Made by a program: the position numbers and the translations under genes
Assembly (NCBI GenBank): GCA_964016885.1
Contig: OZ024743.1
Span: 276,892,001 to 276,956,000 of the forward strand
Direction: 5' to 3'
Source of the DNA: Eledone cirrhosa
Lineage: Eukaryota
Length of the DNA stretch: 64,000 bases
Part shown: in pieces, positions 31,397 to 31,592 of the stretch
How the letters are laid out: every line of letters starts with the position of its first letter
Numbering within the stretch: the first letter of the stretch is position 1
The notes under the pieces: model-generated
The model's database searches: none
Told to the model about the DNA's origin: nothing
Seen by the model: the letters and a program-made list of their open reading frames with translations, nothing else

Positions 31397-31592
31397 AACA
31401 AAGGAATTGTAGTAAGGAACCAGATGGACTATAACGCACCAGAGTACTCAATACTTAGGGTAGTAGAGTGGGAAATAGGAAAAAGTATGACCCCCGACGG
31501 CAGAGCTCAAGCCGTTTCGACGGCTATTTCTGGACTACCAGAAATAGCCGTCGAAACGGCTTGAGCTCTGCCGTCGGGGTCATACTTTCTCC
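31397..31592 (-). mobile_element. Family H1, copy D
   Basis: Homologue of 3501-3690 with a 4-nt loop ACTA. Confidence 0.8.

What the first reader, a model, noticed from the sequence alone, without database searches (positions are those of the whole stretch)
31476..31592. The H1 turnaround falls inside hammerhead stem II and removes the catalytic 5' core
Seen: each arm reads ...CCGTC-GAAA-CGGC(TTGAGCTCT)GCCGT-C-GGGGTCA. That is stem II 3' strand, GAAA, a 5-bp stem III, a GUC site and a stem I 3' strand. No CUGANGA is present, and the symmetry centre is where the stem II loop would be in all four copies. Inference: nascent cDNA snaps back on the ribozyme's own stem II and self-primes second-strand synthesis. 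This would give the HHR fold a second, DNA-level role in integration.
Basis: inference. Interest (0 to 1): 0.72.

Follow-up and report, generated by a model that had tools for sequence, protein, structure and literature searches.

The report
Penelope stubs meet at RNA start
This DNA palindrome is two short back-to-back stubs of a very abundant Penelope-like jumping gene; the stubs meet inside its hammerhead ribozyme, likely because the element's capped RNA begins there and the copying enzyme runs off its end, not because the DNA folds back on the ribozyme stem.

Summary
The palindrome is real. It is one of at least 46,000 insertions of a Hydra-clade Penelope-like retrotransposon (719-aa RT plus GIY-YIG ORF in long copies). 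Long copies carry the missing 5' half of the hammerhead, but the core is UUGANAA (U3-A8 variant, known in PLEs), not CUGANGA. The breakpoint peak is real: 97 of 151 arms end within 8 nt of one A (+1) in extended stem II. Snap-back on stem II is not supported: 143 of 151 arms never reach the strand they would pair with, the lower-stem junction has 0 matches, and 28 ORF-adjacent copies cross stem II without stopping. Best reading (0.65): two target-primed cDNAs, one from each PLE priming site, run off a capped RNA 5' end at an initiator-like +1 and are joined head to head. Support: 59 of 59 pairs have one tailed and one tail-less arm; 32 of 36 one-base junctions are C:G where the source mostly has T. 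Against: no RNA data, and 0 of 34 ORF-adjacent copies stop at +1, so a second RNA class is needed. The scan reached this reading before on other DNA of this genome.

The parts
31370..31396 (.). (TA)n target repeat, left flank (start approximate)
   Evidence: sequence
31397..31474 (-). PLE 'tail' (~78 nt, element positions about +62 to +139), present on one arm only; in tandem copies it continues into the 5' UTR
   Evidence: 46,146 exact tail 21-mers in the genome; tail definition from PMC11167929 and PMC8557442
31475..31537 (-). tail-bearing arm: element positions -1 to +61 (3' strand of stem II, GAAA 31518-31515, stem III, GUC 31498-31496, stem I 3' strand)
   Evidence: alignment to long copies
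31536..31536 (-). +1 A, predicted capped transcription start (initiator-like context), modal 5' end of arms
   Evidence: histogram; junction base; conservation; inference, no RNA seen
31534..31537 (.). 4-nt centre of the palindrome; blunt junction between 31537 and 31538, 0 nt overlap
31538..31595 (+). tail-less arm: element positions +4 to +61 (GAAA 31553-31556, GUC 31573-31575, predicted cut 31575/31576)
31596..31621 (.). (TA)n target repeat, right flank (end approximate)
   Evidence: sequence
3493..3707 (+). second copy of the same family (subfamily A)
5853..6063 (-). third copy (subfamily A)
8428..8637 (+). fourth copy (subfamily B)

Best explanation
The palindrome is a doubly truncated insertion of a Hydra-clade Penelope-like retrotransposon, likely made when both nicked strands of a (TA)n target each prime a cDNA that runs off a predicted capped RNA 5' end lying inside hammerhead stem II, after which the two cDNA ends are likely joined head to head. 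Shown: family identity, hammerhead fold with a U3-A8 core in long copies, one tailed plus one tail-less arm, the breakpoint peak at +1, junction diversity and the central C:G excess. Inferred: +1 is a Pol II start in an initiator-like motif; the two arm 3' ends (+61 and about +139) are the two internal RT start sites described in vitro for a Poseidon PLE; the C:G is the reverse-transcribed cap; the 5' half of the ribozyme is missing because it lies upstream of the start; long tandem copies come from a second RNA class (read-through or circular) that has no end at +1.
For: Long relatives: intact 719-aa ORF, ATG at +232, 3,531-bp tandem unit. 97 of 151 arms from breakpoint-independent samples end in -8..+8, mode +1 (18 arms), 8 pass -9. 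59 of 59 pairs have one tailed and one tail-less arm (108 of 110), matching two RT start sites that delimit the tail and extension of both target strands in vitro (PMC11167929, parts 1-2 read). 53 distinct junction types in 59 pairs, so the joints form independently. Among the first 50 of 375 family-A elements with both arms reaching +1 and 0-2 nt between them, 36 have one base: 32 C:G, 4 A:T (hand count); long copies have T at -1 in 33 of 36, C in 3, G in 0; p = 1e-6 even against 50:50. A 1-nt loop cannot be made by self-priming. Arms keeping +1 with a -1 base not explained by the partner: T 26, G 15, C 8, A 4 of 53 (G among non-T, p = 0.014; one element counted twice). Untemplated G as a cap mark is established for L1 and SVA (PMC4859970, passages). 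T-2, A+1, G+2, T+3 are invariant in 21 long copies of subfamilies A, B and C although the sequence just upstream differs and, in C, +1 folds unpaired. D. virilis Penelope has a TATA-less internal promoter with an initiator (PMC2377424, passages).
Against: No RNA evidence could be had. 0 of 34 ORF-adjacent copies stop in -8..+8 (26 continue past -60, 2 start at -41/-42, 2 at +36/+41, 3 in the tail, 1 has no pLTR): a simple single capped monomer would predict many, so a second RNA class is an added assumption. 19 of 151 arms extend to -1..-8, and among elements with 2-14 nt between arms 76 of 100 listed ends continue with the templated base (hand count), so starts would be spread or some arms come from read-through RNA. 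The C:G could come from source copies with C at -1 (3 of 36 long copies; about 11 of 87 templated extensions) if those sources dominate; no two-cap junction occurs among the 6 two-base spacers. In D. virilis the start lies well upstream of the ribozyme (46 nt plus a 75-nt intron ending at helix I; PMC2377424, PMC4209133). I saw no match to a DPE consensus (recalled) at +28. The initiator consensus is recalled and is short and common. Arms share a haplotype in 70 of 72 pairs, which fits one template as well as two from one source. The subfamily C sample (24 of 59 arm hits at +1, a few of them A/B arms) was drawn with a query that held a junction and is biased.
Confidence: 0.65

Rival explanations
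1. One reading: the nascent cDNA snaps back on stem II and self-primes the second arm.
For: Peak lies in extended stem II. 3 of 57 listed elements carry the junction predicted for fold-back on the family-A apical hairpin. Arms share a haplotype in 70 of 72 pairs. 4 of 59 pairs have at least 2 nt overlap and a loop of 3 nt or more. L375 looks like one local fold-back at the core.
Against: 143 of 151 arms never reach -9; lower-stem junction 0 of 33; the family-B apical junction 0 of 57; 28 of 59 pairs have loops under 3 nt; fixed tail-less end unexplained; L175 has arms of two common haplotypes differing at 3 diagnostic sites; 28 ORF-adjacent copies cross stem II.
Confidence: 0.04
2. RT stalls at the folded stem II or at a protein bound there; two stalled cDNAs are then joined. 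No RNA end at +1.
For: In subfamilies A and B +1..+5 form the 3' strand of an apical hairpin and templated extensions fade at its loop (-4 to -8). PAc protein binds near this region and aids ribozyme folding (PMC11167929).
Against: 0 of 28 crossings stop in ORF-adjacent copies; +1 is unpaired in subfamily C folds; RT passes the stronger stems I, III and lower II first; a stall gives no reason for a C:G excess.
Confidence: 0.12
3. Long head-to-head insertions lost their centres after insertion (cruciform or hairpin deletion), leaving short palindromes.
For: Long inverted pairs exist with spacers of about 0.2 to 5 kb; long palindromes are unstable (established knowledge); some arms show deletions between short direct repeats (L127).
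Against: Deletion would not end at one base; only 6 of 59 junctions have 2 nt or more overlap; no reason for an untemplated C:G; intermediate lengths (-9 to -49) are 1 of 151.
Confidence: 0.07
4. The ~200-bp palindrome moves as a unit (MITE-like or retrotransposed hairpin RNA) from a few short masters.
For: Very high copy number and uniform outer ends; 2 private variants shared by both arms.
Against: 53 junction types in 59 pairs; A-to-G is 3 and T-to-C 5 of 66 one-arm private variants in 45 pairs, most being CpG-type changes.
Confidence: 0.05

Closest known systems
Hydra clade of C-terminal EN+ Penelope-like elements (Craig et al. 2021, PMC8557442; section 11, passages and supplement rows read)
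   Same: Single ORF with RT and C-terminal GIY-YIG, DKT, RWK-like, CxCx5C linker, CxxC and CxH motifs, hammerhead, (TA)n targets, inverted 5'-truncated copy, tail at one end. The supplement lists one cephalopod member, Hydra-1_Obim (2,507 bp, 'no pLTR').
   Different: Unit 3,531 bp (clade generally under 3 kb); tail ~78 nt (30-40 nt described); core U3-A8 and long stem II; about 95% of arms are stubs ending near one base. I did not compare sequences with Hydra-1_Obim.
Poseidon PAc of Anolis (Frangieh et al. 2024, PMC11167929; parts 1-2 of 4 read)
   Same: AT-rich target, both strands cut and extended, two internal RT start sites delimiting the tail near the RNA 5' region, product length set by the RNA 5' end, uncleaved RNA as main substrate.
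   Different: Other clade; there the ORF starts in stem II, here the predicted transcript starts in stem II and the ORF at +232. The parts read do not map the start or treat short palindromes.
PLE hammerheads (Cervera and De la Pena 2014, PMC4209133; parts 1-2 of 4 read)
   Same: Type I fold in the pLTR, G10.1-C11.1 pair, U3-A8 core variant (~1,300 hits in Schistosoma), opposite-strand pairs 100-700 bp apart, circular-RNA model for tandems.
   Different: Here helix III is a stable 5 bp and helix II is long with an apical hairpin; most genomic copies hold only the 3' half.
L1 twin priming and cap-derived 5' G (review PMC4859970, passages)
   Same: Both target strands prime; untemplated G at full-length 5' ends read as cap copying.
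   Different: L1 twin priming inverts without duplicating; here both arms copy the same stretch.

Membership tests
Hydra-clade PLE | single ORF, RT then C-terminal GIY-YIG | tested here: met
   719-aa ORF L098:4580-6739; Pfam GIY-YIG only weak, E 0.069, below cut-off, and no RT family hit; domain call rests on motifs read by eye
Hydra-clade PLE | DKG modified to DKT | tested here: met
   DKT present in the ORF
Hydra-clade PLE | N-terminal RWK motif | tested here: inconclusive
   RWR at the matching place, a conservative change
Hydra-clade PLE | CxCx5C linker; CxxC and CxH around conserved E and N | tested here: met
   all three read in the ORF against section 11
Hydra-clade PLE | insertion into (TA)n | tested here: met
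   flanks
Hydra-clade PLE | length generally under 3 kb | tested here: not met
   tandem unit 3,531 bp; the paper says 'generally'
Hydra-clade PLE | phylogenetic placement with Hydra RTs | not tested
   no tree built
EN+ PLE insertion architecture | partial tandem, inverted 5'-truncated copy, tail at one end only | tested here: met
   L098 and L095; 59 of 59 pairs
Type I hammerhead ribozyme | core CUGANGA | tested here: not met
   long copies read UUGANAA (some C3 with A8)
Type I hammerhead ribozyme | accepted U3-A8 core with variable N7, GAAA, UH | tested here: met
   N7 is G, A, U or C across copies; variant described in PMC4209133
Type I hammerhead ribozyme | three-way junction with covarying stems | tested here: met
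   MFE of L098:4286-4412 is the junction but z only -0.35; 91.5% of cells paired, 3 stem II pairs change on both sides, all from one subfamily split, so about one event each (21 of the long copies aligned)
Type I hammerhead ribozyme | self-cleavage | not testable with these tools
   8 of 151 arms start at +40..+44 near the predicted cut, but 7 start at +35..+39 and a short direct repeat confounds both
Retrozyme | tandem monomers each with a full hammerhead | tested here: not met
   single head-to-head stubs with half ribozymes

The most novel reading that the evidence does not exclude
This PLE starts its capped transcript inside its own hammerhead, so the 5' copy cannot cut; capped RNA gives only strong-stop-like stubs, full-length mobility needs read-through or ribozyme-made circular RNA, and the stubs, which carry the internal promoter and both priming sites, re-amplify as a Pol II SINE-like class of tens of thousands of copies.
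Probability: 0.3. Interest if true: 0.7.

Novelty: new member of a known kind. Interest (0 to 1): 0.45.

Why it matters
How PLEs build their inverted ends is stated as open (PMC8557442, PMC11167929). Tens of thousands of stubs give a genomic record of both priming sites and, if the reading holds, of the RNA 5' end, and they predict two RNA classes with different fates; each point can be tested by 5' RACE and the existing in vitro assay. These stubs are also easily mis-annotated as MITEs or SINEs.

Tried and rejected
Rfam scan of the window: 0 hits. CUGANGA search: 47 hits, the 30 read are junction filler or flank. An apparent 5-G bias on the tailed arm was query bias: 5-G arms split about evenly between tailed and tail-less (15 and 15 in the 30 loci), and 0 of 18 partners had 5 G; not decisive, as it can arise after insertion. 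Private-variant sharing (2 shared, 66 on one arm) is dominated by later mutation and does not separate models. A second peak at the predicted cut is inconclusive. Sequencing runs: no RNA holder listed; nothing laid. One search's tally had a faulty exclusion list and filter and was replaced, where L375 and L405 (-41, -42) are printed under a wrong bin label and were re-sorted by hand. One search used a mis-registered structure and was replaced. Of 40 hits, 34 were examined (left out: L098 itself and 5 inner copies of tandem arrays). A genome-wide count of chimeric arm pairs was not obtained, so that question rests on 72 pairs. Helitron/HINE and MITE readings were dropped once the ORF was found. 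Literature: searches found no paper mapping PLE palindrome centres to a transcription start (74 returned 0 papers); subscription papers are largely not covered; PMC13282606 passages do not mention palindromes or hammerheads; supplements of PMC11167929, PMC4209133 and the bioRxiv preprint (part 1 of 5 read) were not seen and may bear on novelty.

Full report
Observation. The stretch 31475-31595 is a near-perfect palindrome with a 4-nt centre, far beyond chance (z -20.3). Each arm carries the 3' half of a hammerhead and no CUGANGA lies between them. One arm continues into a ~78-nt tail (31397-31474); both ends abut (TA)n. Four copies lie in the window. The window is G000:C4:276892001-276956000 in a 3.0-Gb genome.

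Family. The genome holds 46,146 exact tail 21-mers and 35,316 exact arm 22-mers. Long relatives encode a reverse transcriptase with a C-terminal GIY-YIG-like domain. L098 shows the textbook layout: inverted truncated copy with tail, partial tandem, 5' UTR, intact 719-aa ORF, 3' UTR, ribozyme, tail-less end. Tandem arrays repeat every 3,531 bp. The protein has DKT, RWR, CxCx5C, CxxC and CxH, matching the Hydra clade as described in PMC8557442 section 11; Pfam support is weak and no tree was built. Inverted 5' copies and one-sided tails are known PLE features.

The ribozyme. Long copies supply stem I, a core reading UUGANAA, G10.1, a 9-bp lower stem II and an apical hairpin. The minimum-energy fold of L098:4286-4412 is the three-way junction, though not more stable than shuffles. 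On 21 long copies of three subfamilies 91.5% of cells pair and three stem II pairs change on both sides between A/B and C; N7 takes all four bases. The U3-A8 variant is described for PLE hammerheads (PMC4209133).

Breakpoints. I number from the A at L098:4349 (+1); the predicted cut is +41/+42, the tail-less end +61, the tail end about +139, the ATG +232. The core 22-mer occurs 698 times against 35,316 at +2..+23. In samples chosen without regard to breakpoints (window, 800 kb of contiguous genome, 70 tail-anchored loci), 151 arms were mapped: 7 pass -50, 1 ends in -49..-9, 19 in -8..-1, 78 in +1..+8, 46 further 3'; the mode is +1.

Snap-back tested. Fold-back on stem II needs a cDNA that has copied the 5' strand (-35..-27 or -19..-9); 143 of 151 arms do not reach -9. 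The lower-stem product is 0 among 33 matches of a pattern allowing it (the pattern omits the common family-B templated continuation, so 33 is not the number of long copies). The apical product is 3 of 57 listed elements for family A and 0 for family B, and two cDNAs annealing give the same sequence. Of 59 pairs, 28 have loops under 3 nt and 4 have both 2-nt overlap and a loop of 3 or more; this copy has none. All 59 pairs have one tailed and one tail-less arm, which fold-back does not explain. Among 34 ORF-adjacent copies (of 40 hits) 28 run through stem II and none stops in -8..+8: the structure is no barrier or trigger in itself. In favour of fold-back, arms share a haplotype in 70 of 72 pairs (35% expected at random), but L175 joins two common haplotypes differing at three sites.

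What sets the endpoint. T-2, A+1, G+2 and T+3 are invariant across A, B and C while the upstream 20 nt differ and +1 is unpaired in the C folds; the motif fits a recalled initiator consensus. Where both family-A arms reach +1 with one base between, it is C:G in 32 of 36 (hand count of the first 50 of 375 elements), whereas long copies have T at -1 in 33 of 36. That is what copying a cap gives, as accepted for L1 and SVA (PMC4859970). In vitro, a Poseidon PLE extends both target strands from two internal sites that delimit the tail, and product length follows the RNA 5' end (PMC11167929). D. virilis Penelope has an internal TATA-less promoter (PMC2377424). Junctions are diverse, 53 types in 59.

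Mechanism proposed (0.65). Transcription starts at +1 inside stem II (inferred). The protein nicks both strands of (TA)n and primes one cDNA at the tail end and one at +61 (ends shown; priming inferred from the published assay). Both run off the capped end after 60-140 nt and are end-joined with small losses or fillers (junctions shown; route inferred). The 5' core is absent because it was never in that RNA. Long tandems would come from read-through or circular RNA (inferred; circle model from PMC4209133).

Against. No RNA was seen. That none of 34 ORF-adjacent copies stops at +1 contradicts a single capped monomer and forces the two-class assumption. Templated extensions to -1..-8 are common (19 of 151; 76 of 100 ends). 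Sources with C at -1 exist and could mimic the cap base. The D. virilis start lies upstream of its ribozyme. A stall at a bound protein, later deletion of long palindromes, and unit-wise movement remain at 0.12, 0.07 and 0.05.

Novelty. The element is a new member of a known kind and its layout is known. My searches found no paper placing PLE palindrome centres at a transcription start inside the ribozyme; coverage of subscription journals is poor and several supplements were not seen. I recorded this reading before the look-up, which showed that three earlier unreviewed notes on other pieces of this genome reached it too; they are not independent support, and they gave me the Hydra lead and the editing rival, which I tested. 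Look-ups by sequence and near this place were empty. Interest 0.45.

Noticed in passing
window ~34000-41000: Large low-complexity C/A-rich tandem array with 9/12/15-nt spacings and extreme strand skew.
   Followed up: no
window ~32080-32600 and beyond: Tandem satellite with a unit of about 39 bp (read by eye).
   Followed up: no
window 22986-23081: Unrelated palindrome with 47-bp arms and a 2-nt centre.
   Followed up: no
window 15176-15584 with 17859-18267; 27649-27979 with 28551-28881: Long inverted pairs (409 bp at 98%, 331 bp at 97%), possibly other PLE insertions.
   Followed up: no
window 31553-31556 region; L098:4345-4490: Without the 5' half, the RNA folds a 6-bp hairpin that hides GAAA in its loop, which could keep a +1 transcript inactive.
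   Followed up: partly
L328:2165-2290; L088, L135: Older subfamily C with the same tail, a covaried stem II and arms ending at the same +1.
   Followed up: partly
L066, L096, L103, L227: A subfamily with C3 opposite A8 in the core, predicted to break the 3-8 pair, yet amplified.
   Followed up: no
L375 and L405: Two ORF-adjacent copies begin at the ribozyme core (-41, -42); L375 has an 8-nt inverted piece that could be a single local fold-back.
   Followed up: partly
L397; L111, L114, L134: Copies starting at or next to the predicted cut (+41..+43), a possible trace of cleaved RNA.
   Followed up: partly
G000:C1:14235381-14237140: Tandem array of tail matches spaced by multiples of 58 bp.
   Followed up: no
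L092 and L096: A second, diverged PLE ORF with the same motif style nested inside or beside this family.
   Followed up: no
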